Below, piece after piece: positions 13,395 through 42,783 of a stretch of 64,000 bases of DNA (within the stretch, counting starts at the first letter, position 1; each line of letters begins with the position of its first letter). The stretch comes from Mytilus edulis (taxonomy: Eukaryota): assembly GCF_963676685.1 (NCBI RefSeq), contig NC_092346.1, forward strand, positions 94,054,001 to 94,118,000, given 5' to 3'. A program made the position numbers and the translations under genes. The notes beneath the pieces are model-generated. The model did not search any database. It was not told the origin of the DNA and saw only the letters and a list, made by a program, of their open reading frames with translations.

Positions 13395-13450
13395 TTGGAG
13401 TGAGACAGTAATTTATATTATAAAACAAATGGGCGATATCGAAACATGGT

Positions 13451-14218: not shown

Positions 14219-14247
14219 TGTTTGTTATACATTTTCGAACCATATAA

Positions 14248-15452
14248 TTAGGTCTTTCCACTTTTCCGTGGAAAGACCTATTGCTTTTCTTCTGATTATT
14301 ATTATTTTTTTTTTCTTCCGCCAAATTTTTTTCCTTCGCTGTTTTTTTGTTTCGCAAGATGTCGCTTAGATATTTGGAATATGATATCGAACAGTTTATG
14401 CGCTTTTGAACCTGACCCTGTGAAACCAAATACTTTCCTATATAAGAGTTATCTCCCCGTACACTGTTTTTCTTGTTATCGCTTAATCTTCGCAACGGTA
14501 TAAGAAACCGACAAATTTATTTTACCAAATTGCTCGTTATCTCCTCAGGATGATTTGATTAATTTTGACCGAAGCTATCCGGATACTCCCTATGAGAGTT
14601 ATTTCCCCTTTTATATTTGATATAAGTGATATGCATTTTTAACTGGAAAACTTTAAGTGGTAGAGGCCTAGGGTCTTTTGATTTGAGGTCCTTGGTCCTA
14701 AAAAATGAAAATGAGGTCAAGGTCAAAGATCAAGGTCATGATTAAAATTTTGATTTTGGCTTGTTATCTCTTATTTTCAGAAATCATATAAGATATCAAC
14801 AAAATATTTTCACACAATTGTTAGTTACGACATGTCGTAACACATTAATTTTAGTCGAAAAGGGTACGTAGACATTTGACGCGAGTTTTCCCCCTTTTTA
14901 TATCTAATATCATACGTATGGTAATATAACTCATTAACAATATACAGTAGAGGACTAGAGTCTTTTGATTTGAGGTCCTTGGTTTATGACCTTGAAATTG
15001 AGCTCAAGGTCATATGATAATTAAACGTTCTAGATTTTGACCTTTGCTTTTACCTCATATGTACACATGATAAAGCCATGGGACTTTTTGCATTCAGTTG
15101 TAAGCAATGTGACCTTAAAAAACACAACCGGAAGTGACCTTTTGTAAACCGGAAGTAGCTATTTTTTGTACTAAATCAATGTAAAAGTATATGGAACCAT
15201 ATATTTTTGGAATCAGTGTCAAGTAAACTATCAAACAATACCGGAAGTAAACTTTTTAAACCGGAAGTAAAAGATTATCTCCCTTTTCTGTATATTTTTT
15301 TTATAGAAACCATATATTTTTGGAATAAGCGTTGAATAAGCTTTCATTTGACGCTAAAATTGACATTTAAAACCAAATTTTAATATTTTCATATATAAAA
15401 AGGTCTAAACTGGTGGAAAGACCATCAATGGTTCTCTGAACAATTGGTTTTT
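14248..15452 (+). mobile_element. Non-autonomous Helentron-associated (HINE/DINE-1-like) element
   Basis: Absent in the paralogs at 39990 and 61340. 5' hairpin TAGGTCTTTCCAC..GTGGAAAGACCTA, (TTA)n tract, internal ACCGGAAGT repeats, 3' subterminal GTGGAAAGACC plus a short stem-loop and T-run. Confidence 0.65.
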
Positions 15453-17055: not shown

Positions 17056-17690
17056 GTGCAAAAAGTAAAATCACACAAAAATACTGAACTCAGAGGAAAA
17101 TCAATTCGGAAAGTCCATAACCACATGGCAAAATCAAATAACAAAACGCATCAAAAACGAATGGACAACAACTGTCATATTCCTGACTTGGTACAGGCAT
17201 TTTCAAATGTAGAACATGGTGGATTGAACCTGGTTTTATAGCTAGCTAAACCTCTCACTTGTATGACAGTCACATCAAATTGCATTATATTGTCACCGAT
17301 GCGTGAACAAAACAAACAGACACAATAGGTAAAAATGTCAAAAATAGGGATACAGCAGTTAATATTGTGTTATCATCTTAATCTCTATAAAAACAACAAA
17401 TGTAACGAAGTAGCACAAAAAGGCATACATCCAATTAACATCCTCATTTTGATTATATTATACGATTTTATTTGTCTATGTAAAATGCAACCATCAAGGA
17501 AGGAGGGTTTTGAGTACTGGTGAAAAAATTGCGCGTTTGAAATTCGCACAGGTAGACATGAAATTATTTTGTCGTTCAAAGTATGACGTGTTGCATAAAT
17601 ACAGTCACGCAAAATAGATATAACAAAAACTGACTTGACAGTTAAAGTAATAAAAATAAATAAAATAATAGTGTGGTTCTTAGCTCCATG
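17056..17690 (+). repeat. Interspersed repeat family (AAAGTAAAATCACA...AAAGTCC...CTTGGTACAGGCATTTTC); related copies at ~40670, 41550, 62000 and 62800
   Basis: Dispersed similar copies in the window. Confidence 0.55.
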
Positions 17691-25800: not shown

Positions 25801-26599
25801 CTTTTCAACATATACAGTATCTCTCAACAACTGTGAATTAAACTTCCAATATCCCTTACCCCTTTTATCAAGACTGGCAGAAAATGTGAAAACAATGGCT
25901 GAGTGATCGGTTTTGTATCCAGGTATAATTTGCATTTTTCATAAGTGAAAATAAGTCTTCGCTCACTAAAAAATAATCTAATCGCCTCTGCTTGATAGGA
26001 GAGGTTTGACGCCAAGTAAATTTTTTGTCATCTGGATGACAGGTTCTCCATGGATCTAAAAGTTCAAAAGTTTGTGAAATTTCTTCAATCTTATTACGAG
26101 AGTTCAAATTTCTATTGTGCAGAATATTATAAGTGTCCATATGAAAATCTTGTACAACATTCCAGTCACCACACATTAAGATGCTAGTATTAGTATAGCA
26201 AGAGATGTTGTGTAAAATATCACTAAACAATGATGGTTCATCAGTATTAAATCCATAAACAGTGACAAAGGTTAGCCTTTGTTCATATAATGATAAGTCT
26301 AAAACAATAAAACGACCTTTCTGGTCTATCTTAGAATCATGAATCTTAAAATCTAGACCCTTGTTAAACATCACACTAACACCAGCACTTTTATTGTTGC
26401 AGTGACTGAAAATGCATGTATTACCCCATTCATCTTGCCAAAGTTTCTCGATATCCTCATTACTGTGAGTCTCTTGAAAACAAACAATAGATGCATGTTT
26501 ACCTCTTACCCAATTAAAAATATCTAATCTTTTTTTCTTGCTTGAAAATATGCCCCTTACATTCATAGATAAAACTGTAATATTATTATCAATACTCAT
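22851..26599 (-). pseudogene. LINE ORF2 (APE endonuclease, reverse transcriptase, zf-RVT) broken by ~3 frameshifts
   Basis: SMNVRG/FQETH/GDWN/RLDYF endonuclease (25868-26599); GYWKFN (25438-25935); KSPGSDG, WRPISLLN, DFEKAFDSV, RQGD, QYADD RT (23482-25395); CTFC...ETIEHLFYDC (22851-23378). Confidence 0.9.
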
Positions 26600-27212
26600 T
26601 AAGTAATATGTTCAATCAGACAATAGAAAAGCAAAGCAGTACAATACTTAAAATAAAAATGCATACCCATACTAACTTCACATTTATACATCACAAATAT
26701 ACACAAAAGATGGCGCTTGAAACAATATTTAATATACATCAGATACTTTTTACAGATTGGCTTCATATGATAAATAGCATATATTTTTTTATTCTGATAG
26801 TTTGGTGTTAAATGCTTTATTTTCTTTTTAAATTAACAGAAATGAGAACCTAGTATAATATTTTCTTTTTTCAATATTTATATAAATTTTTAGTGTGTTG
26901 AGAACGATTTTATGATAAAAATAAAAAAAAAGTTTTTGAAAATGGAGAATTAGTATAATTATATAGTTAAAAATGTTTTATTCAACTCTAAGCAAATCTT
27001 TGAACATATTTTCCTTAGAAAGTTATGAGGGAAAATTTCTTATAGTATATATAATATATAATAAAACATTCTAGTAATATAGAGTTACCTCCCATTAATC
27101 AAGAAAGCTTTTCCACTATTGATAATTAGAGTTACCTCCCATTTATGAACAAACAAAGAAGCAAAAAATTACCACAATTAATAAGATAGAAAATATTTAC
27201 ATACTTGAAAGT

Positions 27213-27696
27213 TTATATGCTTGAAAGTTTTTTTTTAATTTTCTCATCTATATTGTCATAAAGATCAAATTTGATTCTGTACACACTATCCTTCAATTTA
27301 TCATATACACTACAGTTGTAGAACCAGGCATTATTTAGCATCACATTTGTATTTAGTCTAGCTAATAGTCCAAGATTTCTTTGGGTTATATCGTCATGAA
27401 ATTTAATGTCATTCTTCAACCCCTTCTTATTTCTCATTATCTTGATTTTAATTTCTGTGTTACGGACCTTTGCTATCACAGGTTTGATGTTACCTTCTTT
27501 TCCTGGGATTCGATGTATTGCTATGACATCTGATGGTTCTATCTCAACATTTAAGTCTTTCTTCACCATTTTCACGAAAACATCTCGTAAGTTCTCATTT
27601 CTCTTTTCTGGAAAATTCACCATTCTTATATTATGTTTCCTGGAGTACTGTTCATTATAGTTTGCAGATTTAAGTGCATCTATGGACCTATGGTTG
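27213..27696 (-). pseudogene. LINE ORF1 C-terminal remnant (L1-type RNA-binding)
   Basis: EQYSRKHNIR...AIHRIPGK...FHDDIT motifs typical of L1/Tx1 ORF1p; cut off at the LTR. Confidence 0.75.
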
Positions 27697-27909
27697 TGAA
27701 GTGTTTGTGTGGGCTTGCTAATAACTTACCAACAATAACTGTCAGATTAGCGTAGCTTCTATAATATCTAGATTTCTTGTAGGAGCTGTGTAACACACCT
27801 CAGACATAGACCATGGGTTAGAACAGGAAGCCCCGAATTGCACGATCTCACTTCCGGCTAAGTATATATATTTCTCCTGAGAGTAGGAGCACCTCTGAGA
27901 TTCACTACA
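27697..27909 (-). repeat. 3' LTR (213 bp)
   Basis: Matches 37926-38142 apart from a few substitutions and one 4-bp indel. Confidence 0.95.
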
Positions 27910-27918
27910 CTCCTCCCT
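27910..27918 (-). other. Polypurine tract
   Basis: AGGGAGGAG immediately before the 3' LTR on the element strand. Confidence 0.8.
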
Positions 27919-28133
27919 GTCATCTTCTTTTTGTTGATCATTCTAGGGATTGTGAAGGCAATTGCAGTAATGTTCCTATCCGCAGAATTTTCATTTTTAT
28001 CCATGTCTTGATATACATAACACGTTATTGCGAATTTCCAAATATTAAAAATATAATTCAATGTTATTAAATGTTAATGACTTGTCGGAATGACAGGTGT
28101 GGTTGTGAACGTTCCTTCACCATTCCGATCTCC

Positions 28134-28490
28134 TTCCTTACACAAAACTTTAGGTGAACAGCACAGCTGTCGCACACTAGAATTCTGCATAACATAAATT
28201 ACTCCGATTCTTGATGATCCTATTCTTACACAAAATCCTAGATGGACAGCACAGCTGTCACACACTAGAATTCCGCATAACATAAATTACTCCTGATTCT
28301 TTATCCTCCTATCCTTACACAAAATCCTAGATGGACAGCACAGCTGTCACACACTAGAATTCCGCATAACATAAATTACTCCTGATTCTTTATCCTCCTA
28401 TCCTTACACAAAATCCTAGATGGACAGCACAGCTGTCACACACTAGAAATCCGCATAACATAAATTACTCCTGATTCTTCATCCTCCTAT
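28134..28490. repeat. Tandem array of ~4 x 89 bp in the Gypsy 3' UTR
   Basis: GACAGCACAGCTGTC recurs at 28245, 28334 and 28423 (variant at 28158). Confidence 0.9.
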
Positions 28491-28641
28491 CTCATTCCTT
28501 CCACCAAGGAATTTAATTACATATATACATATAAATGTCCATCATTTAAACATTCTTTAAATCCTTTTAAAGAAGTAATATTACTATAGGTCCACATAAA
28601 AAATATGTACATATATATAAGAAGTCACAAGTATTTATATC

Positions 28642-30150
28642 TCACTGTAATTTATAGATTTTCTTTGAATTTTCGGTAGTAATTTTGAAAACATCTTCAA
28701 TGGGTTGTTGTAAAAGTTCAGATATTTTAAGTGCAACTGCATGAACGGAGTAAGGATTTCCAATGGTGTGAGAATGTAGTGGGATATATGGAGCATCTAA
28801 TTCCAAAACTAAACGTGTAATGCCAAAAGTTTTCACAATTTCTACAATATTGGAGTATCGGTCCTTCAAAATAAATGGGGTAATGCCAAAAACAATGTTA
28901 GAGAATTGACTGACGGCTGCTGAGTACAGTTGAGTGGAACATGTGAAACAATGCCAATGAATTAATTGGTCCGGTTTGCATATTTCACTTAGAATGGCCA
29001 AAACATGTTCATGCAGTGATGGTTTTCCTCTTGAGTGTATAACGATAGTTAAATTCAATGCTGCTGCCAAATACAGTTGCTTTCTAAAATATGTAATTTG
29101 TCGGTTGAAATCTCTCCTTGAGGGGTTGGTAGAATCATCTAAAACAATCTCCCCTACTGCCACTGTTTTTGTTGATTTTAATAAATTTTGAAGATCAGTC
29201 CAATTATGTTCCAGAGATGAAGTTGATGATGAGCTTATAATTTTAGGATGAATGCCAAAGGTGAATCTTAAACGGTTATCTTTCCTGAATTCGCTGCGCT
29301 GTGCTGAGTTTGGCCAAGCTGACGGAAAAACAAAGTTAACAATGGCATATTTTAGTTCTGTCTTATAAATGCTTTGGGAGCCAAGGTCATCCAGATCCTG
29401 GAAAGCTCCACTACCCATCTGCCTACATAGTTGGTCTAGATGGAAGTGAGAGTCTATGATGGGTAGTGGTCCGGATAACTTTGTGCTCAACTGTCCAATT
29501 TGAAGTCCGTCTTTGTCCTTTCTTTCCTCGAATTTTAAAAGCCAAAGTTGTTCGTCTGAATTCAAATAACCAATGAGATTTTTGAGAATTTTCCAGTGAA
29601 GAATATGATAGATTTCCATTAGTGGAGTGGCAGGAATTTTGTAATCAGCAGCAGGCTCCATACAATTCAATTTCAAGAAAGAATCCACGAGTTTAACTTC
29701 AGAAATATGGAATTCTGTAGGCGGCAATTGTGTCCTAATTTTCATTATGGCATTCAGTTTCTCTTCAAGGCCTACTGGGTAGGAAGTGCCTAATGAACGT
29801 GCTAACTCTAGAAGACCGTTCATTAGCTCAGCGTACATCACTTCTCTGTTCTTAAAGGTAGCATCAATGGCATTTGTGGGATGACAGCGAGTTATGTGCT
29901 TGTTCAGGAAATTGGCTGTCTGTTCCTGAGTACCACCAATCCAACAGGCAGTCTCTGGCGCCACATACCATGGTAGATGAGTTTGAATGGTGTGTCTTCT
30001 TGGGTTGGTAAATGTGTGAAAGCAAATATCACACTCCCTGTGTCTCAAGCGGACATTTGTAGCCTCACCTCTGATAGCTATCTGCCTTTTAGGTTCAGTT
30101 AAGTGGTCCTGGTTCTCCTCCTCCTCATAATCCAATTCTTCCTCACTCAT
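28642..30150 (-). CDS. Retrotransposon-encoded TatD-family DNase with N-terminal acidic tract and C2H2-like zinc finger(s), 502 aa
   Basis: IIDSHFHLD, FGIHP, VAVGEIVLD, IVIHSR, IHWHCF, LVLELDAPY, NPYSV..VA, TTENSKKIY are the TatD motifs; CDIC-x9-H-x4-H at the N-terminus. Confidence 0.9.
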   Translation of the reverse strand: MSEEELDYEEEENQDHLTEPKRQIAIRGEATNVRLRHRECDICFHTFTNPRRHTIQTHLPWYVAPETACWIGGTQEQTANFLNKHITRCHPTNAIDATFKNREVMYAELMNGLLELARSLGTSYPVGLEEKLNAIMKIRTQLPPTEFHISEVKLVDSFLKLNCMEPAADYKIPATPLMEIYHILHWKILKNLIGYLNSDEQLWLLKFEERKDKDGLQIGQLSTKLSGPLPIIDSHFHLDQLCRQMGSGAFQDLDDLGSQSIYKTELKYAIVNFVFPSAWPNSAQRSEFRKDNRLRFTFGIHPKIISSSSTSSLEHNWTDLQNLLKSTKTVAVGEIVLDDSTNPSRRDFNRQITYFRKQLYLAAALNLTIVIHSRGKPSLHEHVLAILSEICKPDQLIHWHCFTCSTQLYSAAVSQFSNIVFGITPFILKDRYSNIVEIVKTFGITRLVLELDAPYIPLHSHTIGNPYSVHAVALKISELLQQPIEDVFKITTENSKKIYKLQ

Positions 30151-30254
30151 TATACCAGTCTAGAAAATACTGAATGAACCTACTAATTATTTATTGTTAC
30201 TTAATTTATTTTTTTTTATAAGGCTTTGAAAATGAGCAAATACTATTACCTTTA

Positions 30255-30367
30255 TGTGTGTTACCTTCGGCTGTTGTTTGCTCTATGGTCGGGTGGTTGT
30301 CGCTTTAACATATTCACCATTTCCTTTCTCAATTTTATCATAAAAATAAAAAAAAAAAAAAAAAAAA
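30255..30367 (+). repeat. Short interspersed repeat 3' fragment plus A-tract between pol and TatD
   Basis: ACCTTC..GCTGTTG..TATGGTCGGG..CATTTCC..CTCAATTTTA matches the ends of 54851-55090, 56790-57425 and ~1950-2020 (minus). Confidence 0.6.
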
Positions 30368-30438
30368 TAGGAAAAATATTACATACTTTAACATACTATA
30401 CAAAAATATTTAAAAACATTTGTGACGAACATCATCAC

Positions 30439-33400
30439 TCAAAACTCTTCGCTAACTACATCCACCACATAATCTGACAAATAGCTTGGCAGAAACCTCT
30501 TTCTTTTTACTCTATCTGATATTTCAGTTTTATCAGGTACTTTTAAAGTATTCTTATCAGGAGACAAGAGAACAGCACTGCTGTCACTATTGCCATTACT
30601 CATGTTAGCCAAATCCAATGGATCAGCACAACTACCATGATTAATATCATTCTCACTGTCTAAATCCAATCCAGGTACTTTTAAAGTATTCTTATCAGGA
30701 GACAAGAGAACAGCACTGCTGTCACTATTGCCACTACTTTCATCATTCCTATTCAATTGGACAGCACTGCTGTCACAGTTTGAATATGGAAGTGAAAATA
30801 AAACATCTGACCAACCATCAGGCAACTCGTTTTCTTCTTTTCTTGAATCCATATTCCCCTCTGGAACACACTGACCAAACAGACGGTTTCGAAGTCTCTT
30901 TATCCACAATGGGACAATTTCGTCGTCACATTGTTTTATCCTATCATGATGTATTACCATCTCTTTCTTTCTACTTGTAATTTCATACAACACAGGGGAC
31001 AATACTCTGGTTACTACATAGGGTCCCTGCCAGGGAGCCCTGAGTTTCTTGCTCTGACCTTCTTTTGATGTTGAATCCAACTTGAAAACAATATCACCTA
31101 CTTCGTAAGTTTTATGATACAATTTTATATCGTAAGTTCTTTTCTGACGAAGCTGAGCTGCCTGTAATTTTTCGCGCGCAAACTTATGAGCTTCCTGGAG
31201 AGTATTTTTTAGGTCAATTACATGATGAACGGTTTCCTTGGCTTCAAAATTGACAGAACAAGTTCCTGTTAGTAAATTGATTGGATGTAGTACTTCCCGA
31301 CCTAACATCATCATGTTAGGTGTAAACCCTGTCTGTCTATTCACAGTTGATCGTATAGCACCAGAAATGGTTTGTAAATGAAGGTCCCAATCTTTCTGTT
31401 TTCCCTTCAAATAACATCTGATGGCTTGTAAAATGGTTCGATTAAATCGCTCAACTTGTCCGTTAGAACATGGTCTATATGGAGTGGTCCTAGTTTTGAC
31501 GATTTGTAACAGTCTGCAAATATCATGAAACAAATGACCGTCAAAATTTTTCCCTTGATCGGTGTGAATTTGGACTGGACATCCCAATCTTGAAATGAAA
31601 CCGTCTAGTAATGTTTTAGCCACAGTAATTGTGTTTTGATTAGGTAATGGAAACATTTCCATCCATTTTGTGAATTGATCTACTAACACTAATACATATT
31701 TGTTAGCAGAAGAACTCTCGTGTAGTGGTCCTAGAATGTCCATGTGCAATTTTTCCATAGGAATTCCTGCGTGAAATTGACCTAGAGGCCCCTTTGGTTT
31801 GACGTTGGCTTTTTTGTTGACATTACAAGTATGGCAAGACTTCACATAATTTCTCGCGTCTTCCCTTAACCCAAACCAAATGTAATTCTGTTTTAATCTT
31901 TCAATAGTTTTTGCCTGTCCAAAATGCCCTGATAGTTTAGCATCATGACAATTCTCTAAGATTTTGTGTCTTAAAGATCTTGGAACAACTAATAACAATC
32001 TTGAATGAACTGGATCTAGCCATTTATAGCATAATATACCATCCTTAAGTACTAATTGATGTTTACAATTCCATAAATGTTTAATAGAAGGGCTACATAA
32101 ATATAATTCATGCTCCTCTGGTTCTTTTTTATCCTCTAACCATACTATCAATCTGTTAAGTTCCTGATCTTTCCTTTGTTCAGCTCCCATATTGGTAATT
32201 TCAGACTCGCTTATCCAATTACAATTCACTAAACTATCTAAATTGGTTTCGTCCAAATCTTCTTCTTGCTCTGAAACACTCCTTACAGACAATGGAACTA
32301 CATAATCGACATCATCTTCAAACGAACTCCAGACTTTTTGTGCTCGAGTACAATATGAGCAACCACCGCAAGGTAGCAATTTTATATCTGCACCAGCATA
32401 ATAACAATTACAAGAATCTAAATCATCTGGTCTCCTTGATAGTCCATCTGCATTGGTGTGTAGTTTCCCTGCTCTATGTTGTATTACCATGTCATATTGA
32501 GACAATTCCTCTAACCATCTGGCTAGTTGTCCTTCAATCATTTTAAACCTTAGTAGCCATGTCAAACTGTTATGATCTGTCCTTATGATGAATTGTTGGC
32601 CTAATAAATAATTCCTGAATTGTCTGGTAAATACTACAATCGCTAACAGTTCTTTCCTAGTGGTACAATATTTCCTTTGGGCTGGTGCCAATACCCTACT
32701 TGCATAACATATTACATACTCTTTTCCACCAATTACTTGTAATAATTCTGCTCCAATGGTGGTGTGGGAGGCATCGGTATCTAGAAGGAACTTTTCCTTT
32801 GGATCTGGATATGCTAATGTAACTGAGTTGACAAGTGCCTGTTGTAATGATTCAAAAGCTATCTGGTGTTGCTTTTCCCATTGAAAAATTACTTTCTTCT
32901 TTGTCAGAGCATACAAAGGCTCGGCAAGGGTGGCAAATCTTTTAATATGTTCCCTATGATAGTTGGTAAACCCAAGGAAAGATTCAACAGCTTTCTTCGT
33001 CAGAGGAACCGGCCAATTCAATATAACTTCTCTACTAGAGGGATTAACAGCTATTCCTTTCTCATTTACCAGTTTACCCAAGAAAATAACTTCTTTTTGG
33101 AAAAATTTGCATTTTTGTGGCTTTAATTTCAAATTATTTTCCCTGAATCTTTCTAGTACAGTTCTTAAATTTACAAGATGATCTTCAAAATCTTCACCCA
33201 GAACAATAACATCATCAATGTATGCTAGACATATTTTCCATGTCAAACCTGTCAAAATTAACTCTATCATCCGCTGAAAGAATGCAGGACTGTTACATAA
33301 TCCAAAACTGAGTCTTATGTGTTCGAAAAGTCCATATTTAGTTATGAATGCTGTCTTGTGTCTATCGTCCTCGTGTATCTCAGCCTGATAATATCCTGAT

Positions 33401-34851
33401 GCCATGTCTAGACAGGACATAAATTTACTACCTCTCAAAGTGTCGATACAGGTCTCTATTCTTGGAATCGGAAATGCGTCTTTTCGAGTAATAGAGTTTA
33501 ATTTCCTGTAATCAATACAGTACCTGATCTTCCCATCCTTCTTGCGAAGTAGTACTGGGGCTGCACTCCATTCTGATGATGATGGCTGTATGACTCCTCT
33601 ATTTAATAAATCTTTGAGATGCTTTTCTTCTTCTTCTTCTAACCCTAGTGGTGTTCGTCTCATTCTTTCTCTTACAGGAGCTGAGTTTCCAGTGTCGATC
33701 ATATGCTTAACCTTGGTATAATGTCCAATGTCGAGATCATGTTTTGAGAAGGTATCTTTAAAGTCCAGCAATAGTGACGCCAATCTCAGATTTTCGCTTA
33801 AATCTAAATTTTCCTTTGACGAATCTAATAAAGGTTTTAATTGTACAGGAAAATTGGAATACATTTCATCCCATTCATTTCTTAAGTCTCTAAGTTCCCT
33901 CTCCACTGTGTTAACTGACCTTACTGATGCTCTGTCCTCATAATCACACCTTTCCTCATCTATCACCCCATAAATTTCCATTGCTGTACCAATGAAGCGA
34001 TTTTTCTTCAGACTTATGGACTTATCTGTCAAATTGTTTAGGATAATAGGTACTCTTGAATCAGCTTTGGTCAAAATATTTGGCATAATCAGCCCATTCA
34101 AAGACTTACTTGGTTGAATAGCCACTTCATTTTTAAATTCCTCTGCCAATCTTACTGGTAGTCTGACAGTTGAATTAGGTGGAACAATAAGAGTCTCTTC
34201 CAACGTTATGCGGCAAATTTTCAAACTACTGTTTTCTGATTTAACTTCATTAATAAAATGTTTTTCACCTCTAATTGTTATTGACAAATCAGTCAAATCT
34301 ATCACGGCATCAAGATGTTTAAGAAAGTCTAATCCTAGTATCACTTGATCATTGATTTTAGCTACTATAATTTTCCACTTGGTATCAGTCTTCCCTACCT
34401 TAACTGTAACACATTCTGTGTACCTTGCTGTAATGCTATTGTCTTTTCCAGCACCTTGCAACATTAGCGAGCCTTTAAAAATTACCGGAGGCTTAAGTTT
34501 CTTTGCAAATTCTTCACTCATAAGTGTGACCTGGGCAGCTGTATCAATTACTGCGTTTACAGTTACCTCATTAATTGAAATACCTAACACAAGAGTATTG
34601 GATTCTGGATTTCGATCACTTGGATACAGTTGAACCTCACGTAATTGAGGATTATCAATACCATTCTTTGTATCTTCCTTTTGGCCACTATTGAAGTCTG
34701 TCAAGTTACAATGAACAGCACTGCTGTCACTAATTGTAACCTGTTTTTTCCCGAATACCTCTGGTTTCAATTCTCTAAAGGGAGATAATTGGCCTATTTG
34801 AGGTTTTTGGACTGATGAGCGACCTACATCTTCAGTCCTTGCTCGTTTAAA
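30439..34851 (-). CDS. pol: Gypsy Pol (aspartic protease, RT, RNase H, integrase), expressed by -1 frameshift from gag
   Basis: IDTAAQVT protease; RYCIDYRKLN, LDMASGY, AYIDD RT; DTDAS/TDH RNase H; H-H-C-C and D,D35E integrase; GPY motif. Frame is open from the slippery site. Confidence 0.95.
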   Translation of the reverse strand, partial: FKRARTEDVGRSSVQKPQIGQLSPFRELKPEVFGKKQVTISDSSAVHCNLTDFNSGQKEDTKNGIDNPQLREVQLYPSDRNPESNTLVLGISINEVTVNAVIDTAAQVTLMSEEFAKKLKPPVIFKGSLMLQGAGKDNSITARYTECVTVKVGKTDTKWKIIVAKINDQVILGLDFLKHLDAVIDLTDLSITIRGEKHFINEVKSENSSLKICRITLEETLIVPPNSTVRLPVRLAEEFKNEVAIQPSKSLNGLIMPNILTKADSRVPIILNNLTDKSISLKKNRFIGTAMEIYGVIDEERCDYEDRASVRSVNTVERELRDLRNEWDEMYSNFPVQLKPLLDSSKENLDLSENLRLASLLLDFKDTFSKHDLDIGHYTKVKHMIDTGNSAPVRERMRRTPLGLEEEEEKHLKDLLNRGVIQPSSSEWSAAPVLLRKKDGKIRYCIDYRKLNSITRKDAFPIPRIETCIDTLRGSKFMSCLDMASGYYQAEIHEDDRHKTAFITKYGLFEHIRLSFGLCNSPAFFQRMIELILTGLTWKICLAYIDDVIVLGEDFEDHLVNLRTVLERFRENNLKLKPQKCKFFQKEVIFLGKLVNEKGIAVNPSSREVILNWPVPLTKKAVESFLGFTNYHREHIKRFATLAEPLYALTKKKVIFQWEKQHQIAFESLQQALVNSVTLAYPDPKEKFLLDTDASHTTIGAELLQVIGGKEYVICYASRVLAPAQRKYCTTRKELLAIVVFTRQFRNYLLGQQFIIRTDHNSLTWLLRFKMIEGQLARWLEELSQYDMVIQHRAGKLHTNADGLSRRPDDLDSCNCYYAGADIKLLPCGGCSYCTRAQKVWSSFEDDVDYVVPLSVRSVSEQEEDLDETNLDSLVNCNWISESEITNMGAEQRKDQELNRLIVWLEDKKEPEEHELYLCSPSIKHLWNCKHQLVLKDGILCYKWLDPVHSRLLLVVPRSLRHKILENCHDAKLSGHFGQAKTIERLKQNYIWFGLREDARNYVKSCHTCNVNKKANVKPKGPLGQFHAGIPMEKLHMDILGPLHESSSANKYVLVLVDQFTKWMEMFPLPNQNTITVAKTLLDGFISRLGCPVQIHTDQGKNFDGHLFHDICRLLQIVKTRTTPYRPCSNGQVERFNRTILQAIRCYLKGKQKDWDLHLQTISGAIRSTVNRQTGFTPNMMMLGREVLHPINLLTGTCSVNFEAKETVHHVIDLKNTLQEAHKFAREKLQAAQLRQKRTYDIKLYHKTYEVGDIVFKLDSTSKEGQSKKLRAPWQGPYVVTRVLSPVLYEITSRKKEMVIHHDRIKQCDDEIVPLWIKRLRNRLFGQCVPEGNMDSRKEENELPDGWSDVLFSLPYSNCDSSAVQLNRNDESSGNSDSSAVLLSPDKNTLKVPGLDLDSENDINHGSCADPLDLANMSNGNSDSSAVLLSPDKNTLKVPDKTEISDRVKRKRFLPSYLSDYVVDVVSEEF
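34804..34851 (-). promoter_or_regulatory. -1 ribosomal frameshift signal
   Basis: T TTA AAC heptamer (34845-34851) in the gag frame, followed by a GGACTGA/TCAGTCC stem with possible AGGT/ACCT pseudoknot; pol is in the -1 frame with a TAG just upstream. Confidence 0.8.
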
Positions 34852-36746
34852 GTCCCCTCTCTAAGATTATTATTTGGAGATGGTGATCTGTTGCGTCTCA
34901 TTGGCGACCAACTTTTCTTTGGACACTGTGTACTGTAATGGCCCATTTCCCTACACGTATAGCATTGTATATCCCGTATATCTCTGGTTGGACTTCGTCC
35001 TCTTGGTGAAGGCGACCTTTGGCGATCAGCAGTGGTTTTGGGACTGATTGAGTTGATAATCTTCTTGATGTCTGATTTAATGGTCCAGATATGTTGTTCT
35101 GTAGTTGCCATTCTTGTTTCCATAGTCTCATACTTTTTCTGTAAGTCTTGCATACTAGAATTATTTGCCGTTTTGACTTGACGTACTAAACATTCTGTAC
35201 TTTCTTCATCTGAGTCATCATAAAACTGAACCCTTTTTACCTCTGGCTTTCTATACCCTAATAAAATCTTTTGGTTGTGAATGGAGCTCTTAACATATTG
35301 TAACGCTTGGTCCATTGTATTTGGGTCTTTCTCCATGGCAAATAGCGCTGCTTTTTTGTCCGTACACCCCTTCAAAAAAGCGTCAACGGCTATAGTATCA
35401 ACTACATTCTCTGGTGTATTTAGATAACCATCTGTTGCTAGTTCCTGTATCCTTTCGGCAAACTCCTCTATCGACTCATCCTCTTGCAATTGACGCCTAA
35501 TGGTGTGAGGTAAATCTTTATTCCCAAATCTTTGACTCAACTTTTGAACTAACACGTCATAGTCCTTTTGAACGGTCTCTTGGCGAGTACTCACAAATTT
35601 CAGAGCCTTATCTCTGAGGCATTCAATTAGACGATCTAATTTTTGTTCATTAGACCATTCATACTTCCTGGCTATATGGTTAAATTGCATGAAATACGGC
35701 TTCCATTCTGATTTCCCATCAAAAATGGCTAGCTTTGGTGGTGTTGGTCCAGAACGTTGATTGGATTTAACATCCTTACAGCTCGAGTCATCTTTTCCCT
35801 TCCCTGATGTTGGAGTTTTCCCATTGTTATTAATCTCTTCTTTTGAGTCTCCAAGTTTATCTGGGCTAAATGTTTGTCTGGATTTAAGCTTTGCAGAATC
35901 ACTATACCAGGAACTAGCTGACATCTCAGTTACTTTACCCCTAAATATATCTCCTGGAGCTAGCTTTTCAGAAATAAGTCGTGATGTTTTAAAATGCTGT
36001 AATTGCTCTTCTAATGCAGTTAATTTCCTGCCATGTTCTGCATCCCTTTGTTTCATCTGCTTATATTGCTCCTTGCTCCTTTCTCTTTCTTTATCCATCT
36101 CTTGAGCCTGTTCCATGACCTTATCCATTAATGTTTGACGTTCCCGTTGCATGCTCTCCATTTGTTCTGAAAAACCACCTTCTTTTTCTGCCATAGTACT
36201 CTCATACTGATGTTGTAACTCACTCATTTCTTGTTTAATTTGTGTATTTTCAAAACTCAACTCTTTTTGACTTTTTTCCCTTTCCAGTTGATCCTTCTCC
36301 ACTTCTCTTTGAAAATTATCTTTTGTTTGTTGGAGTTCAGCAAGGCATTCCTCTATCTCTGCTGACTTACGCCATAGTTGCTTCTCAAAAGTTACTTTTA
36401 AATCTTCAAGTTCTTTCGTATATTCCCTTTTTGAATGAACTTTGTCTTGTTCTGCAATTAACAACTTTGTCTTATACTGTTCTATTAATGCAGAAGTGTC
36501 ACCTTGTGCTGTTGGTTGCTTTTCTGGAGTTTCTTCCTCTGGACTAACTTCAACTGTGCCATTCCTTATCAATGGGTCCCAAATCGTGTTTGGTACACCT
36601 TCTATCATCTTTAGATCTTCTAATGTCAAGGTGCCTTTAATTTTTCTTGCTTTTATAATTAAATTGGCTCTGGCCTCCCCTATGTCTCTAATTTCCATTA
36701 ACTCTTCTTTTGTCGCAGTATTGATGTTAATTGTCGACATCTTCAC
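34824..36746 (-). CDS. gag: Gag with N-terminal helix-hairpin-helix, coiled coil, capsid-like region and CCHC knuckle, 640 aa
   Basis: ININTATKEELMEIRDIGEARANLII (HhH); FDGKSEWKPY...ESIEEFAERI...AFLKG capsid motifs; CYTCREMGHYSTQC. Confidence 0.9.
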   Translation of the reverse strand: MKMSTININTATKEELMEIRDIGEARANLIIKARKIKGTLTLEDLKMIEGVPNTIWDPLIRNGTVEVSPEEETPEKQPTAQGDTSALIEQYKTKLLIAEQDKVHSKREYTKELEDLKVTFEKQLWRKSAEIEECLAELQQTKDNFQREVEKDQLEREKSQKELSFENTQIKQEMSELQHQYESTMAEKEGGFSEQMESMQRERQTLMDKVMEQAQEMDKERERSKEQYKQMKQRDAEHGRKLTALEEQLQHFKTSRLISEKLAPGDIFRGKVTEMSASSWYSDSAKLKSRQTFSPDKLGDSKEEINNNGKTPTSGKGKDDSSCKDVKSNQRSGPTPPKLAIFDGKSEWKPYFMQFNHIARKYEWSNEQKLDRLIECLRDKALKFVSTRQETVQKDYDVLVQKLSQRFGNKDLPHTIRRQLQEDESIEEFAERIQELATDGYLNTPENVVDTIAVDAFLKGCTDKKAALFAMEKDPNTMDQALQYVKSSIHNQKILLGYRKPEVKRVQFYDDSDEESTECLVRQVKTANNSSMQDLQKKYETMETRMATTEQHIWTIKSDIKKIINSISPKTTADRQRSPSPRGRSPTRDIRDIQCYTCREMGHYSTQCPKKSWSPMRRNRSPSPNNNLREGTLNEQGLKM

Positions 36747-37554
36747 TTTTATTTAATACACAATAATTACTTCTATATCAAATAAATTTTAAGATACGTT
36801 TTAAATACGGCCAGCACAGCTGACTCACTCAATGATACGTTTTAAATACGGCCAGCACCGCTGACTCACTCAATACCCCTAAATTAATTTTAACACGGCC
36901 AGCACTGCTGACACGATCATGTAAATTTATTTATTTATTTTTCTAGATTTCCGTTTATATTCTAATGTTTTATCTCAAGTATGCTCAATCAAAAAATTTA
37001 CTTTAATCAATATGATTATCCATAAATATATATATATCTATCTATAGTTTGAAAAAATTACAACAAAAATAACACCAAAAAACACAGCAAATATAAATAT
37101 AATAACCAAGTATATGTGTAGAAAAAAATAATAAATCTTTATTTCAATTATATGTGTAGAAAAAATAGTAAGTCTTTATTTCAATGTACAACAATTAGAC
37201 TAATATAACTATTCTGAATATCTATAGCATCAAATCAATATCTTTCTTGCTTTGTAATAATAATTTATATATATTCAATTACTAACATGTATATCACACA
37301 AACTGAATATATAATGCGGTATACTTTTATTATATACCCCAAAGAAAAATATACACACTGTAATAGTATCTGCCAATTGCTCAATTATGTCTATTTCTAA
37401 TACTTTTATTAGTTTAAATTAAACAAATAACATACATTAGGACAGCACTACTGTCTCAATAATCATATTTTTGAATTTTGATAATTGGCCAGTACTACTG
37501 ACTCAGATTAAATAAAAATTTGCCTAAAGAATTTCAATCTTTTGATGTTTTGTT

Positions 37555-37668
37555 TTTATAATTGTCTCCCTTTTCGTGTAACAACTGGTTTTTGTTTTTG
37601 TTTTGATAATTGTCTCCCTTTTCGTGTAACAACTGGTTTTGTTTTTATAATTGTCTCCCTTTTCGTGT
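37555..37668. repeat. 3 x ~40-48 bp tandem repeat in the Gypsy 5' leader
   Basis: ATAATTGTCTCCCTTTTCGTGTA occurs three times. Confidence 0.8.
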
Positions 37669-37911
37669 ACAAACTGAAATTCAGTTCATACGGTTTATAT
37701 TTTGTTTGTTTTCACCTTTATTCAAGTGAAGTGAGTATATTCAATTCAATGGTTCACAGTTTTATTGGTAATGGTGTGGAAATAATGCGTGAATGTTTAA
37801 TTCACAGGGATAACACGGTTCAATTGACAAATTTGACCCGCGAAAATCAAAATTTCAACACGACGCGTTTCGCGTTGAAAAGACTATTTTCCACCTGTGT
37901 CAATGACTTTT

Positions 37912-37924
37912 ACATCTGACACCA
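37912..37924 (-). other. Primer-binding site, tRNA-Leu type
   Basis: TGGTGTCAGATGT one base after the 5' LTR, resembling the TGGTGTCAGAAGT Leu PBS. Confidence 0.75.
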
Positions 37925-37925
37925 G

Positions 37926-38142
37926 TGAAGTGTTTGTGTGGGCTTGCTAATAACTTACCAACAATAACTGTCAGATTAGCGAAGCTTCTATAATATCTAG
38001 ACTTTATGTAGGAGCTGTGTAACACACCTCAGACATAGACCATGGGTTAGATAGAACAGGAAGCCCCGAATTGCACGATCTCACTTCCGGCTAAGTATAT
38101 ATATTTCTCCTGAGAGTAGGAGCACCTCTGAGATTCACTACA
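37926..38142 (-). repeat. 5' LTR (217 bp)
   Basis: TGTAG...CTTCA on the element strand, adjacent to the PBS. Confidence 0.95.
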
Positions 38143-39483
38143 GTTGCAATCGCTTATTATTGATTATGATGTAAGTGTGTGTAATATTAATCGGTTCTCT
38201 TAGTTATGTATAATAATTGACCATTCACATGTTTTAGTATTTGAAAAAAAACTTTCGTTGCAATCCTTTAAGTGATGAAATGATATCTTTTTTTATAAAA
38301 GTCAATACAAAAGGATGTGAACGAGAAGTTACTACAGGGAATCAAAGTTGCATAAACATTCTTTGTTATATTGTACAATTACCCTTGCTGACTCGATGGT
38401 CGGTAGTTGTCAAATTAAGCATAGCAAATACAAAGAACAATTCAACTAAGAAAAAGGACGCTTATCTATTATAAATTTCATTACATATGTTTGCGGGACA
38501 TTTCACACAACAATGATCATTTATATGGCATCGTGTTGTCAACCTGTAGCACACATTACCGCAAAATTATAGGCTTGCTTATGACGTCTTGAACGTTTAA
38601 GGAGATGTGAGCAATTGCTCTCTATTGCAAACAGGCGTTTGATTCAAAGGAAAACAGTGAGAAATGTCCTGGTATTGAAAAGTATGTAAAAGGGGTTCGT
38701 GTCATTTATTTAAAATCATTGCATCACATATCAATATGGGTTTGTTGTTTCATATATATTTACATTTGTATATAAAAGTTTATCGCGCTCGAACAAAACA
38801 TATACCTTAAAAATGAAGTCTCTTATATATTTATAAATTTATCTTAGAATGTTATTCAAAAAACATTATTTGTCAAACTGCGTAAACTGGTTTCGTTAAA
38901 TATATTAAATTAACCTACGTTAATAAAAAATAGAAGCACCACGAGTGACTAAAAGTATGTATTTTGTCTTTGAACGTGCATGGTGAAGGTATATCCAGAA
39001 TAGAGCTTCGAGTGCATACAATTTTTAAGCGCTCTTTTTCATATTTTCTATATCATAATAACAACCAACTCAGGCCCGATGGTATCATCAGCTCAATTGA
39101 CAGTGCTTTTGTACAGCAGTTATTACATACATTTCCCTAATTGTCCGTTTATAAATTGAGAAACACGCACAAAACAAATGTTCAAACCTGTCTTTTTAAG
39201 GAAACTTGCCTTCTTTTCTCCAGTTCGTTTGCCTAATTGAGGTTTTGTTTTGAAATGATTCTTTATAGTATTGTATCATTCAACTGTCTTCTTAGGATTC
39301 AATTTGACCTTTCACGGAAGCTAGATAAAAATTATCACTAACAATTAAATAAATAAACAACAGTTTGAATCGTTGTTATTCTGATAACGAATTAGTATGT
39401 TTTGAATGTATCAAAGACTTAAATGAGTTGTGCAGAAAAGGTAAAATAACAAAAATACTGATCTCCTAGGAAAATTCAATTAC

Positions 39484-42400
39484 AAAAAATTATCATAGAT
39501 ATAAAAAAAAGTTAAAATGGCCGAATGAATACGAACTTGAAGAGCATTGAGAACAAAAAATTCAAAAAATTGTTGCCAAACACAGTTAAGGTAATCTATT
39601 TTTTGAGGTAGAAACGCCTGATTATTTCAAAAAATCAAAAAAGTTTTGTAAACAATTAATTTATAAATTTGACCATATCAATGATATCTCATGTCAACAC
39701 AGAAGTGCTGACTACCTGGCTGGTGATACCCTTCGGGTATGAATAAAAAGTTCACCAGCAGGTGCATCGACCCAGTGGTTGTAAATAAACTCATCATATA
39801 TACCAGGATTAAAATTTTGTATTTGCGCAAGACGCGCGTTTCGTCCTCAAAAGGCTAATCAGTGACGTTCGAAATCAAAAGAGTAAAAAAGCCTTAATAA
39901 AGTACGAAGTTCAAGAGCAATGAGGAATAAAAATTTTGCCAAATACAACTAGGGTAATCTATGTGTTTGTTATACATTTTCGAACCATATAATCATAATA
40001 GATGGTTTTTTTTCTCATTTGTATATATAAACATCATGAAAAACTGGAAGCGTATCACAAGTTAGACTAAAGATGCATCACCTCTCCCCCCCCTATTTTT
40101 GGTTGGGTTCATGTCGTTAGTGTATGGTTTCCTACGTTGTGTGTTGTGTATTTTTGTGGTCTGTTTGCCTTTTACTTTTTTAGCCATGACGTTGTTTGTT
40201 TATTTGAAATTGAAAGCCTTTATTTTACTCATACCACTATTATATGTCAAAGAAAATTCCATGAAGTTGTTTGATGACTTTATATTTATCAAAATGTATA
40301 GACGAAAGATACAAAAATGTATAGATGAAAGAAAAATATCTACACATGTCGATGAACAAAAACCAACAAGACGGTTTTTTTTCGGCATATGAGTTTTGAA
40401 TATCTGTTTGGAATCTTCTTCCTGCTTAATTAACGTATCTTTCTACTTTCAGTCCATAGACTTACCTACCCATTTTGAATTTACATTGGTGCTCGCTACT
40501 TTTGTAATTATATTTCATTTCCTAACCACCTACTATGATTCTCAAGTACTCGTCTTTTGATGAATCATTTGGGTTTTCAGTCTCTTACAGTATCTCTCAC
40601 TAATAAGTGATGATATAATACTAATGAGAAAGTGTTTCACATTAATTTTTATTTTTTGTTTAATAAAGGGTAAAAAGTAAAATCACAAAAGTACTGAGCT
40701 TATAGGAAAATCAATTCGCAAAGTCCATAATCACATGGCAAAATTAAATAACAAAACGCATAAAAAACGAATGGACTGTCATATTCCCGACTTCGTACAG
40801 GCATTTTCAAATGTAGAAAATGGTGAATTAAACATGGTTTTATAGCGTTAACCCTTTCACTTTGATAACAGTCTCGTCAAATTTCGTTATATTTACATTG
40901 ATGCGTTAACTAAACAGACAAAATAAATAAGATAGTCAAAATATGGGTACATCAGTCATCATCGTATAACAATTTTAAAAGGAACAATTTAACAGAACAC
41001 AAACTCCTCAATCTGCAAACACATTCATTGATTTGTGTGTCTGACGTCAGAAACTTTTATACGTCACATAGATTTGTCGTTCAATGTGCCTACAAACAAT
41101 TTTAAAATTTACATAGGCAATGTTAGCGTACAGGGTTAAAAAATCAAAAGTATGTCAGAATAAATTTCAGAAATACACCCTAGATTTAAAATAGTCCAAA
41201 ATTTATCTATAGAATTTATAAGAATCCCCAAATAGTTAATTCTACTATGCGATTAAATGATTTTGACGTTTGTGGTTCAACGTATTTTGTAATTGTTAAT
41301 AGAAATATATCATAATGACATAATATAGAACAATATCAAACTGACGGGATCTTTTAAAGTACAGAGTCACGTTATAAGAACCAAAGATATACAAACAGTC
41401 GCATATACAAAACACACCACAAACAAATGAAGGACAATACAAACACATTGACGAGATGTATAAGTACCGAGCCACGTCATGGTAAACGATACAGTTACAA
41501 GGTAGGGATAATGTCAATAATGTTAAACAGTTATTTTTCGTGACGTCAAAAGTAAAATAACAAAATAATGACTAAATGGAATTTTCAAAATGGAAAGTAC
41601 CTTATCAAGTGGCTAAATCAAAAGTTTAAAACACACCAAACGAATGAAAAACAACATTACTGTTATATTTCTGACTTGGTACAGGCATTTTTTCGATGTA
41701 CAAAATGTTGGATTAAAACATACTATTCATGACTTTAATTTAATATCTATAATTTTAAGTTATAAGTTATAAACTTGATATGTGATCGAGTTAGTTTGAC
41801 TCCTTATCGCATGTTTGCTTGACGACTAATGATACACTACAACTGTGAACAATTTGGGTATAACTATACACATTTCAAAGCATATACTAGTAGAACGTAG
41901 ACAATTACAATATGAAAAACTGACAATAAATACCAAGAACAGGTTCTGTACATTTTAATGACGGACTGTACAATTAAATCGAACAACAAGACGGTATATT
42001 TGATATGGTAAAACATGTTAGCCTTACAACAGATCCCAAACAGAGAAATGTCATATTTGTTTCTTAACGACCAGACGATGCTACGTATTTTTACATAAAT
42101 AATTTTCAAACAGAAACATGTGTTAGAAACATTTTATTAATGGTATGCGTCGATTAAATTAAAGACACCTAACCTTTGAGACACTTTTTTAAAAGCAGAA
42201 CATTTCTTTTCGAATGCATCGCCTTTTATCAATGAGGCAATTGCTCACTTCTCTTTCAGAATTTCAGACGTCAAAAGGTAGGCACATGTTTAGCGGTATT
42301 ATGTGCTAGATGTTGGCAAAAGATGCAATGTGAATGTTCATTGTTGTGTTAAAAGTCCAACAAAAAATGTAACTGAAATTGTAATACATCAGGGTCCCTA

Positions 42401-42783
42401 TCCTAAGTTTAATTTGTTTTCAAAATTCTGAATTAATCATTCAATATGCTTCGAATTCATTGGACGACGGACAAAAATTTAATCAACATGATTGATTGTA
42501 GAATATAACTATGTATGTTTGCGCAACATATGGAGCTGTGATGTCACTGCAGCAACTTCTCACCCACATCCTTTGATATTGACTTTTATGAAAAAACAAT
42601 ATCGTTTCCCTTCTTAAAGGATTCAAACGAGAGAACTATTCTTAGTATTTAGTTGGAATGAAGTACACAATGCATAATTTGTTATTGAGTGGAACACGAT
42701 TATAATTTTTGTGAAAGTTTGACCTATCTTCAAATGATAGTTAACAAAGTATAAGTTATAAGAAAAATGTATGTTTAAGTATA
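39484..42783 (+). repeat. Direct segmental duplication of ~60830-63990 (begins with a retrozyme-like copy at 39484-39962)
   Basis: Co-linear near-identical sequence with small indels. Confidence 0.85.

What the first reader, a model, noticed from the sequence alone, without database searches (positions are those of the whole stretch)
27697..38142. Intact Gypsy LTR retrotransposon carrying a zinc-finger-TatD DNase as a third ORF in the env position
Seen: between pol and the PPT/3' LTR, on the same strand as gag-pol, is an uninterrupted 502-aa ORF (28642-30150). It carries every TatD/amidohydrolase metal ligand (HxH, GE, H, H, D). It lies inside LTRs that differ by only a few changes and have a perfect GTTG TSD, so it moved with the element recently. 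Known: TatD proteins are metal-dependent 3'-5' exonucleases/AP endonucleases, and extra ORFs at this position in Gypsy elements are usually env. I am not aware of a described TatD-carrying Gypsy family. Inference: a captured nuclease kept as accessory cargo, possibly for cDNA end processing/repair or for clearing cytosolic cDNA to avoid DNA sensing.
Basis: partly seen in the sequence, partly recalled or inferred. Interest (0 to 1): 0.95.

Follow-up and report, generated by a model that had tools for sequence, protein, structure and literature searches.

The report
Mussel retrotransposon clade carrying TatD nuclease
A large, old and still recently mobile group of Gypsy jumping genes in mussels carries a third gene, where retroviruses keep their envelope gene, for a zinc-finger protein ending in a TatD-type nuclease that is kept under selection, which suggests these elements bring their own enzyme for handling RNA or DNA.

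Summary
Confirmed, and larger than reported. The window holds a 10.4-kb Ty3/Gypsy element of a Mytilus mussel (LTRs, GTTG target duplication, gag, -1 pol). Its 502-aa third ORF is a Group II TatD (Pfam E 1e-39) behind a well-folded, unclassified zinc-finger/helical domain. It is no one-off: 59 of 66 genomic integrases at least 44% identical to this one have TatD downstream, against 0 of 44 more distant ones. TatD and integrase trees agree over 13 families; pN/pS in TatD is 0.09-0.28. Two contigs from other hosts repeat the layout. A splice acceptor precedes the ORF3 start in 14 of 15 families, implying an env-style spliced mRNA (no junction read seen). The nuclease groups with TATDN2-like proteins; human TATDN2 is an R-loop RNase with little DNase activity, so 'DNase' is doubtful. 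A nested sub-lineage keeps the zinc-finger domain but replaces TatD with a small domain, so ORF3 is modular. This copy is slightly decayed. No paper describing it was found in ten searches; Repbase/Dfam/GyDB could not be checked; this scan had not noted it before. Closest precedent: DEDDy-exonuclease ORF3s of bdelloid rotifers. Function is inferred, not shown.

The parts
27693..27696 (.). target-site duplication, GTTG (left copy)
27697..27909 (-). 3' LTR, 213 bp, TG...CA
27910..27921 (-). polypurine tract
   Evidence: same tract in 11 of 11 siblings and near-identical in families B2 and D
28130..28491 (.). 89-bp tandem repeat, 4.1 copies, in the untranslated stretch after ORF3
28642..30150 (-). 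ORF3, 502 aa: acidic N-terminal tail, zinc-finger/helical domain, TatD domain; no transmembrane or signal segment
28651..29457 (-). TatD domain (aa 232-500), Group II HxH type, TATDN2 side of the tree
29485..30045 (-). N-terminal domain (about aa 36-222): two C2H2-like zinc knuckles plus a helical domain with a conserved His-Trp motif; model pLDDT 95.6; no significant structural match
30160..30180 (-). putative splice acceptor (pyrimidine tract, AG at 30161-30160) 9 nt before the ORF3 ATG; inferred from motif conservation
   Evidence: 14 of 15 families vs 16 of 144 internal ATGs
30263..30338 (.). 76-bp insertion of an abundant host repeat in this copy (absent from the sibling aligned)
30439..34860 (-). 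pol frame, 1473 aa stop to stop: protease, RT, RNase H, integrase
34845..34851 (-). TTTAAAC heptamer in -1 frameshift phase, followed by a hairpin; same heptamer at the gag end of family B2
   Evidence: role inferred from general knowledge of -1 frameshifting
34824..36740 (-). gag, 638 aa, with an N-terminal helix-hairpin-helix motif (aa 3-49) and a C-terminal CCHC knuckle
   Evidence: HhH also in contig L075 and a like N-terminus in family B2
37912..37924 (-). primer-binding site beginning TGGTGTCAGA (tRNA-Leu type by recall, not verified)
   Evidence: no tRNA gene found in the two stretches checked
37926..38142 (-). 5' LTR, 217 bp; holds a putative splice donor (G|GTAAGT) at 37959|37958
   Evidence: a G|GT donor lies 13-38 nt before the LTR end in 4 of 4 LTRs read by eye
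38143..38146 (.). target-site duplication, GTTG (right copy)

Best explanation
SHOWN: ORF3 is a heritable, selected accessory gene of a large Ty3/Gypsy clade, made of an element-specific zinc-finger/helical domain and a Group II TatD domain that entered the clade once. INFERRED from motifs: it is made from a spliced subgenomic mRNA (donor in the 5' LTR, acceptor just before its ATG), so as a free protein outside the Gag-Pol polyprotein, and it is an active metal-dependent nuclease. PROPOSED mechanism: like host TATDN2 it cuts the RNA strand of RNA:DNA three-stranded structures; the zinc-finger domain replaces TATDN2's long N-terminal substrate-binding region and brings it to the element's own nucleic acid. 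It would clear R-loops and displaced-RNA intermediates that form on transcribed genomic copies or during reverse transcription in germ cells, which keeps the element transcribed and limits the damage and silencing such hybrids provoke. Odds: selected accessory gene about 0.95; active nuclease about 0.85; this substrate and role about 0.4 (the figure given).
For: Linkage 59 of 66 vs 0 of 44, chance 3e-4 per integrase. LTR pairs enclose ORF3 in families A, B2 and D. Tree congruence; Mantel rho 0.82, p 0.0002, 13 families. pN/pS 0.09-0.28 in the TatD domain in 6 of 6 within-family pairs (p 3e-3 to 3e-18) and 0.12-0.35 in the N-terminal part in 5 of 6. Metal-ligand columns hold His/His/Glu/His/His/Glu/Asp in 137-150 of 144-154 library relatives each. 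All 13 pol-linked TatDs lie on one side of a 100/99 branch; bacteria plus TATDN3 are split off at 100/99, leaving them with TATDN2-like rows. TATDN2 is an R-loop RNase needing E593/E705, its N-terminal region is needed for binding, and it has little DNase activity (PMC10711561, passages); tatdn2 acts in fish primordial germ cells (PMC12709183, abstract). Splice acceptor 14 of 15 vs 16 of 144. Same layout on contigs L075 and L078, about 50% GC, unlike the mussel copies.
Against: No activity, location or substrate was measured. The TATDN2 assignment rests on automatic names (P0145; P0002) and on a tree without human TATDN2 or any TATDN1; the retrotransposon clade is not nested inside the host TATDN2 rows, and the branches joining them are 87/86-90. 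TATDN3, also Group II, is a ssDNA exonuclease/AP endonuclease (PMC10085689, passages), so HxH does not fix the substrate. Elements already encode RNase H. A nested sub-lineage has multiplied without TatD, so the nuclease is not essential. No spliced read was seen at depth of about 1. 7 of 66 close integrases have no listed TatD and were mostly not opened.
Confidence: 0.4

Rival explanations
1. Counter-defence nuclease: ORF3 destroys host silencing or sensing molecules (piRNA/siRNA or their precursors, or element-derived RNA:DNA/cDNA that would trigger cytosolic sensors). This includes the first reader's 'clear cytosolic cDNA' idea.
For: Separate spliced expression fits an accessory protein. 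Three relatives carry a NADAR domain in front of the zinc-finger/TatD, a domain I recall as reversing ADP-ribosylation of DNA bases, which points to conflict with host nucleic-acid marking; their genomic context was not seen. A TatD is co-opted in the Qat anti-phage system (PMC13434339, search listing only). A silencing role was entertained for bdelloid DEDDy ORF3s (PMC5408684, passages).
Against: Anti-host proteins often evolve fast; ORF3 shows strong purifying selection in the six pairs measured (no site-level test was run). Clearing its own cDNA would cost the element integration substrate.
Confidence: 0.25
2. cDNA maturation/repair enzyme inside the particle or pre-integration complex: 3'-5' trimming of cDNA ends or AP-site incision, comparable in purpose to retroviral dUTPase.
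For: TATDN1, TATDN3 and E. coli TatD paralogues have ssDNA 3' exonuclease and AP endonuclease activity (PMC10085689, passages). Gag begins with a helix-hairpin-helix DNA-binding motif. In L155 the ORF3 N-domain is in frame with gag-protease; six loci show 1479-1541-aa frames around such a match.
Against: TATDN2 has little DNase and only very weak AP activity. ORF3 is not part of Gag-Pol in TatD-bearing families; the one integrase-ORF3 fusion (L056) is not shared by its siblings. The gag-fused form lacks TatD.
Confidence: 0.18
3. The essential function lies in the zinc-finger/helical domain (a regulator of the element's transcription, splicing or RNA export, like a retroviral Tat/Rev); TatD is one of several interchangeable C-terminal modules and acts mainly as an RNA-binding or auxiliary part.
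For: The N-domain is kept in TatD-less ORF3s (profile E 9e-14 to 3.5e-9 for 4 of 5; 0.047 for the fifth) and absent from 5 of 5 host-type TatDs; it is under purifying selection; its knuckles resemble tandem C2H2 fingers only weakly (best E 0.17).
Against: The TatD metal ligands are near-invariant across more than 140 relatives and pN/pS is lower in TatD than in the N-part in 5 of 6 pairs, which calls for catalysis.
Confidence: 0.15
4. Neutral passenger: a host TatD cDNA caught once and copied passively.
For: Pairs of nearly identical copies give ratios of 0.3-0.7, as expected from post-insertion decay and few changes.
Against: Open frames and ligands kept across families only 21-56% identical, tree congruence, pN/pS 0.09-0.28.
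Confidence: 0.02

Closest known systems
Juno and Vesta LTR retrotransposons of bdelloid rotifers with a DEDDy 3'-5' exonuclease ORF3 (PMC5408684; abstract and passages seen)
   Same: Non-env enzymatic ORF3 after pol; a 3'-5' exonuclease with intact catalytic residues; function untested there too.
   Different: Different fold (TatD TIM barrel, not DEDDy); 0 mentions of TatD in that paper; there ORF3s are family-specific, gained more than once and show no clear departure from neutrality, here one ancient gain, clade-wide and under strong purifying selection, fused to its own zinc-finger/helical domain.
Env-bearing Ty3/Gypsy errantiviruses (PMC13524379; passages seen)
   Same: Third ORF between pol and the 3' LTR, same strand; spliced expression is typical of ORF3s (stated in PMC5408684).
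   Different: No hydrophobic signal or transmembrane segment in 13 of 13 ORF3s (max Kyte-Doolittle 19-mer 1.45); 0 mentions of TatD, DNase or nuclease in that paper.
Human/fish TATDN2 (PMC10711561 passages; PMC12709183 abstract; PMC10085689 passages)
   Same: Group II HxH TatD; equivalents of the catalytic Glu, Glu and Asp are present; nearest labelled cellular relatives in the tree; an N-terminal extension.
   Different: Mobile and multi-copy; the extension is a compact zinc-finger/helical domain (pLDDT 95.6) not found in host TATDN2-like proteins, not a long disordered region; about 30-35% identity in the nuclease domain.
Mollusc Gypsy clades MolGy1-16, Cigr-1 and others (PMC6238403; passages seen; supplements listed, not read)
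   Same: Probably one of these RT-defined clades includes these families.
   Different: That study classified by RT/RNase H only: 0 hits for TatD, ORF or PBS in its main text. Which clade this is was not tested.
Fungal and orchid Gypsy elements with a 2OG-Fe(II) dioxygenase ORF3
   Same: Selected enzymatic third gene after pol.
   Different: Different enzyme and hosts.

Membership tests
Ty3/Gypsy LTR retrotransposon | LTRs TG...CA with target-site duplication | tested here: met
   perfect 4-bp TSD in 8 of 11 siblings
Ty3/Gypsy LTR retrotransposon | pol order PR-RT-RH-IN after gag with CCHC knuckle | tested here: met
Ty3/Gypsy LTR retrotransposon | PBS and PPT | tested here: met
   priming tRNA named from recall only
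Errantivirus / env-bearing Gypsy | ORF3 with signal peptide and transmembrane anchor | tested here: not met
   13 of 13 ORF3s without such segments
Errantivirus / env-bearing Gypsy | ORF3 made from a spliced subgenomic mRNA | tested here: inconclusive
   motifs 14 of 15 vs 16 of 144; no junction read at depth of about 1
TatD DNase family (PF01026) | HMM above cut-off over the full model | tested here: met
   136.6 bits vs 27, positions 1-253
TatD DNase family (PF01026) | TatD TIM-barrel fold | tested here: met
   model of a sibling copy, pLDDT 87; the first 15 listed entries are TatD-family or TatD-like structures
TatD Group II | HxH motif plus Glu, His, His, Glu-x-Asp | tested here: met
   definition from PMC10085689
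TatD DNase family (PF01026) | nuclease activity | not testable with these tools
   needs an assay
TATDN2 subfamily | groups with TATDN2 in a tree | tested here: inconclusive
   apart from bacteria+TATDN3 (100/99) but not nested in TATDN2-like rows; human TATDN2 and TATDN1 not in the tree
TATDN2 subfamily | long disordered N-terminal region | tested here: not met
   folded zinc-finger/helical domain instead
TATDN2 subfamily | R-loop RNase activity | not testable with these tools
   needs an assay
Bdelloid DEDDy-ORF3 elements | DEDDy exonuclease domain | tested here: not met
   only PF01026 matches
Named mollusc Gypsy clade (MolGy/Cigr-1) or Repbase/Dfam/GyDB family | RT/RNase H placement among reference elements | not tested
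   no reference sequences at hand; databases not available

The most novel reading that the evidence does not exclude
An undescribed, ancient Gypsy clade of molluscs and probably other marine animals encodes a retrovirus-style spliced accessory protein of a new domain family, which carries swappable nucleic-acid enzymes (a TATDN2-like R-loop RNase in most members, NADAR in front of it in some, a small ubiquitin-like-looking module in a sub-lineage) to the element's own RNA:DNA hybrids: a transposon-encoded R-loop resolvase that defeats hybrid-triggered silencing in the germ line.
Probability: 0.25. Interest if true: 0.92.

Novelty: new variant of a known kind. Interest (0 to 1): 0.76.

Why it matters
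LTR retrotransposons rarely carry enzymes beyond Gag-Pol, and where an exonuclease ORF3 was reported (bdelloid rotifers) no selection could be shown. Here a nuclease gene has been kept across families whose integrases are only 40-69% identical, so it solves a standing problem of the retrotransposon life cycle that is not yet named. It makes a direct test possible of whether R-loops, small RNAs or cDNA sensing limit retrotransposons in animals. It offers many compact natural TATDN2-like nucleases (human TATDN2 is hard to purify) and a new zinc-finger/helical domain. It also means that many 'tatD/TATDN2' gene models in mussel genomes are transposon ORFs, not host gene expansions.

Tried and rejected
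Env reading: rejected. One-off insertion or neutral cargo: rejected. Bacterial or TATDN3 origin: not supported; the host TATDN3-like gene is a separate locus (L061, E 1e-86 to TATDN3). Viral collection: no relative with alignment A2; with A5 two loci, both bacterial Qat-like operons by eye. Metagenome scan: of 80 loci kept, only three were opened (L075, L076, L078); most others match the TatD domain alone. Search for longer fused proteins gave 3 hits, none a pol fusion. ESM Atlas: no usable hit, one lead at 0.76. N-domain fold search: no match at E<=0.001 in PDB or BFVD, best Z 2.4; this does not show a new fold. The ~70-aa module replacing TatD looks ubiquitin-like by eye only: no Pfam or PDB support. 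Sequencing runs: no RNA holder listed. Four raw RNA runs (2 studies, 6-18% of each read): depth mostly under 2; X22 covers ORF3 and its 3' part with none over most of pol, X23 covers both on the other strand, X24 none; no joints; the peak at 30260-30311 is the host repeat - too thin to count for or against splicing. Rfam: nothing. PBS tRNA: the pattern search found other elements' PBSs; no tRNA in two stretches. Saturated dS between families gave no ratio. Three upstream kb of the two solo TatD genes show no pol. Literature: ten searches; those pairing tatd with retrotransposon/LTR/gypsy/Repbase terms listed 8, 1, 12, 3 and 26 papers, none on this subject by title and abstract (one opened); one search was uninformative. 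Subscription journals, Repbase Reports and the supplements of PMC6238403 were not seen and could hold a prior description.
Full report
1. Observation. The element lies on the minus strand at 27697-38142. LTRs of 217 and 213 bp differ by 4 substitutions and a 4-bp indel and are flanked by GTTG on both sides. Gag (638 aa) has an N-terminal helix-hairpin-helix motif and a CCHC knuckle; pol (1473-aa frame, -1 to gag, TTTAAAC heptamer in phase) has protease, RT, RNase H and integrase; ORF3 (28642-30150, 502 aa) matches TatD_DNase over the whole model at E 1.3e-39. Named relatives at 93-99% identity come from Mytilus edulis, trossulus, coruscus and galloprovincialis, so the host is a Mytilus mussel; the assembly has 1.37 Gb.

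2. This copy. Its frames are open but it is older than most siblings. ORF3 differs alone from 7 siblings at six positions, two in near-invariant columns. A 76-bp piece of an abundant host repeat sits in the pol-ORF3 spacer. Of 11 other LTR-paired copies examined, 7 have identical LTRs and 8 a perfect 4-bp duplication, at different sites: the family moved recently. One further LTR pair at 88-90% identity (C12) has no listed TatD or integrase and was not opened.

3. A clade, not a family. ORF3 has 90 matches in the genome (85 of 157 candidates scored) and PF01026 134 (150 of 160 scored). An integrase search listed 112 matches (111 of 2185 candidates scored), reduced to 110 loci by merging one split match and dropping one fragment. 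Against 116 TatD positions, 59 of 66 integrases at 44% identity or more have TatD downstream on the same strand (58 at 1.1-2.4 kb, one at 7 kb), and 0 of 44 below 44%; chance is 3e-4 each. The other 57 TatD positions had no listed integrase upstream; since only the best integrase candidates were scored this is no proof of absence, and several were shown to have pol next to them. LTR pairs enclose ORF3 in two divergent families as well: B2 (identical 284-bp LTRs and a perfect duplication in the one copy read) and D (duplication in 1 of 2 copies read), with the same PBS start and PPT. Integrase and TatD trees recover the same groups (A+B1+B2; D1+E; G, I, J+K); pairwise identities correlate at rho 0.82, p 0.0002 over 13 families, integrase 40-69%, TatD 21-56%. 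In six within-family pairs chosen for measurable divergence, pN/pS is 0.09-0.28 in the TatD domain (all p<=0.003) and 0.12-0.35 in the N-terminal part in five, 0.64 in the sixth. Pairs of near-identical copies gave 0.3-0.7 and between-family dS was saturated.

4. Beyond Mytilus. A full scan of protein representatives gave 53 hits at E<=1e-30 and 855 at 1e-10; 83 of the 90 listed hits of 430 aa or more carry a first-knuckle pattern. Most are unnamed; one cluster is five near-identical Argopecten irradians proteins (context not seen). Of 80 metagenome loci, three were opened: L075 reads pol, zinc-finger-TatD, LTR-like stretch with PPT and PBS, HhH-gag; L078 reads integrase then zinc-finger-TatD; both are about 50% GC. 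Their hosts were not determined.

5. The protein. The model has pLDDT 87 and matches TatD structures first. The HxH motif makes it Group II, like TATDN2 and TATDN3 (PMC10085689, passages). In a 42-row tree (P0128 left out as a long branch; P0184 gave no domain; family H not included) all 13 pol-linked TatDs lie on one side of a 100/99 branch, and bacteria plus the mussel TATDN3-like gene are cut off at 100/99, leaving the clade with TATDN2-like rows and two solo mussel genes. Human TATDN2 and TATDN1 were not available, so 'TATDN2-like' is a lead. Human TATDN2 degrades the RNA strand of R-loops, needs its N-terminal region to bind, and has little DNase activity (PMC10711561, passages); medaka tatdn2 protects primordial germ cells from R-loops (PMC12709183, abstract). 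The N-terminal 190 residues fold with pLDDT 95.6 into two C2H2-like knuckles and a helical domain with no significant match; five host-type TatDs lack it. No signal or transmembrane segment occurs in 13 of 13 ORF3s.

6. Modularity. Two integrases without TatD nest inside the clade. Both are followed by an ORF3 with a related N-domain but a ~70-aa tail, ubiquitin-like by eye only, in place of TatD; such ORF3s are multi-copy, and in L155 one is in frame with gag-protease without RT. Three relatives carry NADAR ahead of the N-domain/TatD. Some integrases of the clade end in a PHD finger.

7. Expression. A pyrimidine tract and AG lie within 12 nt of the first ATG in 14 of 15 ORF3s (most at -1) against 16 of 144 internal ATGs; a G|GT donor lies near the LTR end in 4 of 4 LTRs read by eye. 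This implies an env-style spliced mRNA lacking PBS, gag and pol. RNA-seq was too shallow to show a junction.

8. Mechanism. Shown: heritable, selected, single-origin accessory gene. Inferred: separate spliced product, active nuclease. Proposed (0.4): RNA-strand cleavage of the element's own R-loops or displaced-RNA intermediates. Rivals: counter-defence (0.25), cDNA maturation (0.18), regulator with an auxiliary nuclease (0.15), passenger (0.02).

9. Known systems and novelty. The nearest precedent is the DEDDy exonuclease ORF3 of bdelloid Juno/Vesta elements, which that paper found family-specific and not clearly under selection (PMC5408684, passages). TatD has 0 hits in that paper, in the mollusc LTR survey (PMC6238403), the errantivirus survey (PMC13524379) and the bivalve transposon survey (PMC10294476). 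Searches pairing tatd with retrotransposon terms listed no paper on the subject. Repbase, Dfam, GyDB, subscription journals and unread supplements may hold a prior note. This scan had no earlier record by sequence or words. Verdict: real; a new variant of a known kind (Gypsy with enzymatic ORF3), with a new enzyme class, a new partner domain and clade-wide selection. Interest 0.76.

Noticed in passing
window 36594-36734 (-); L075:6575-7672; L165: Gag of this clade begins with a helix-hairpin-helix (ComEA-like) DNA-binding motif, unusual for a Gag.
   Followed up: partly
L070:2718-4256 (-), L071:1867-3132 (-), L156: ORF3 variant with the same zinc-finger/helical domain but a ~70-aa ubiquitin-like-looking tail instead of TatD; multi-copy.
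   Followed up: partly
L155:3-3587 (+): Single ORF gag-protease-ORF3(tail type) with no RT; six loci have 1479-1541-aa frames around the match: a possible non-autonomous family.
   Followed up: partly
L056, L070, L071, L072: Integrases ending in a PHD finger (Pfam-confirmed for L056 and L070); in L056 integrase-PHD runs in frame into ORF3, probably a private read-through.
   Followed up: partly
P0128, P0186, P0191: NADAR domain fused ahead of zinc-finger/TatD; context unseen.
   Followed up: partly
L062:282-1250 (-), L064:281-1222 (-): Two solo mussel TatD frames with a CCCH-like motif (by eye) before the domain and no pol within 3 kb upstream; best TATDN2-like matches in the genome and near the retrotransposon clade in the tree.
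   Followed up: partly
L076:1348-3378 (+): One ORF joining a Ulp1 protease, C2H2 fingers and a TATDN2-like TatD on a metagenome contig; may be cargo of another mobile element.
   Followed up: partly
L157:2-5059 (+): Very long low-complexity frame (2381 aa in the genome) holding the ORF3 N-domain without TatD or any Pfam match in the part read.
   Followed up: no
window 25868-27696 (-): The element landed in a decayed LINE: an ORF1-like frame (by eye) followed by an apurinic-endonuclease frame (PF03372).
   Followed up: partly
L012, L016: Internally deleted copies that keep both LTRs and TatD while losing much of pol.
   Followed up: no
G000:C12:22415918-22427777: LTR pair 88-90% like this family, 11.9 kb apart, with no listed TatD or integrase match.
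   Followed up: no
window 11875-17278, 39503-42772, 58139-63994: Several large dispersed direct and inverted repeat copies (92-99% alike) elsewhere in the window, probably other transposons.
   Followed up: no
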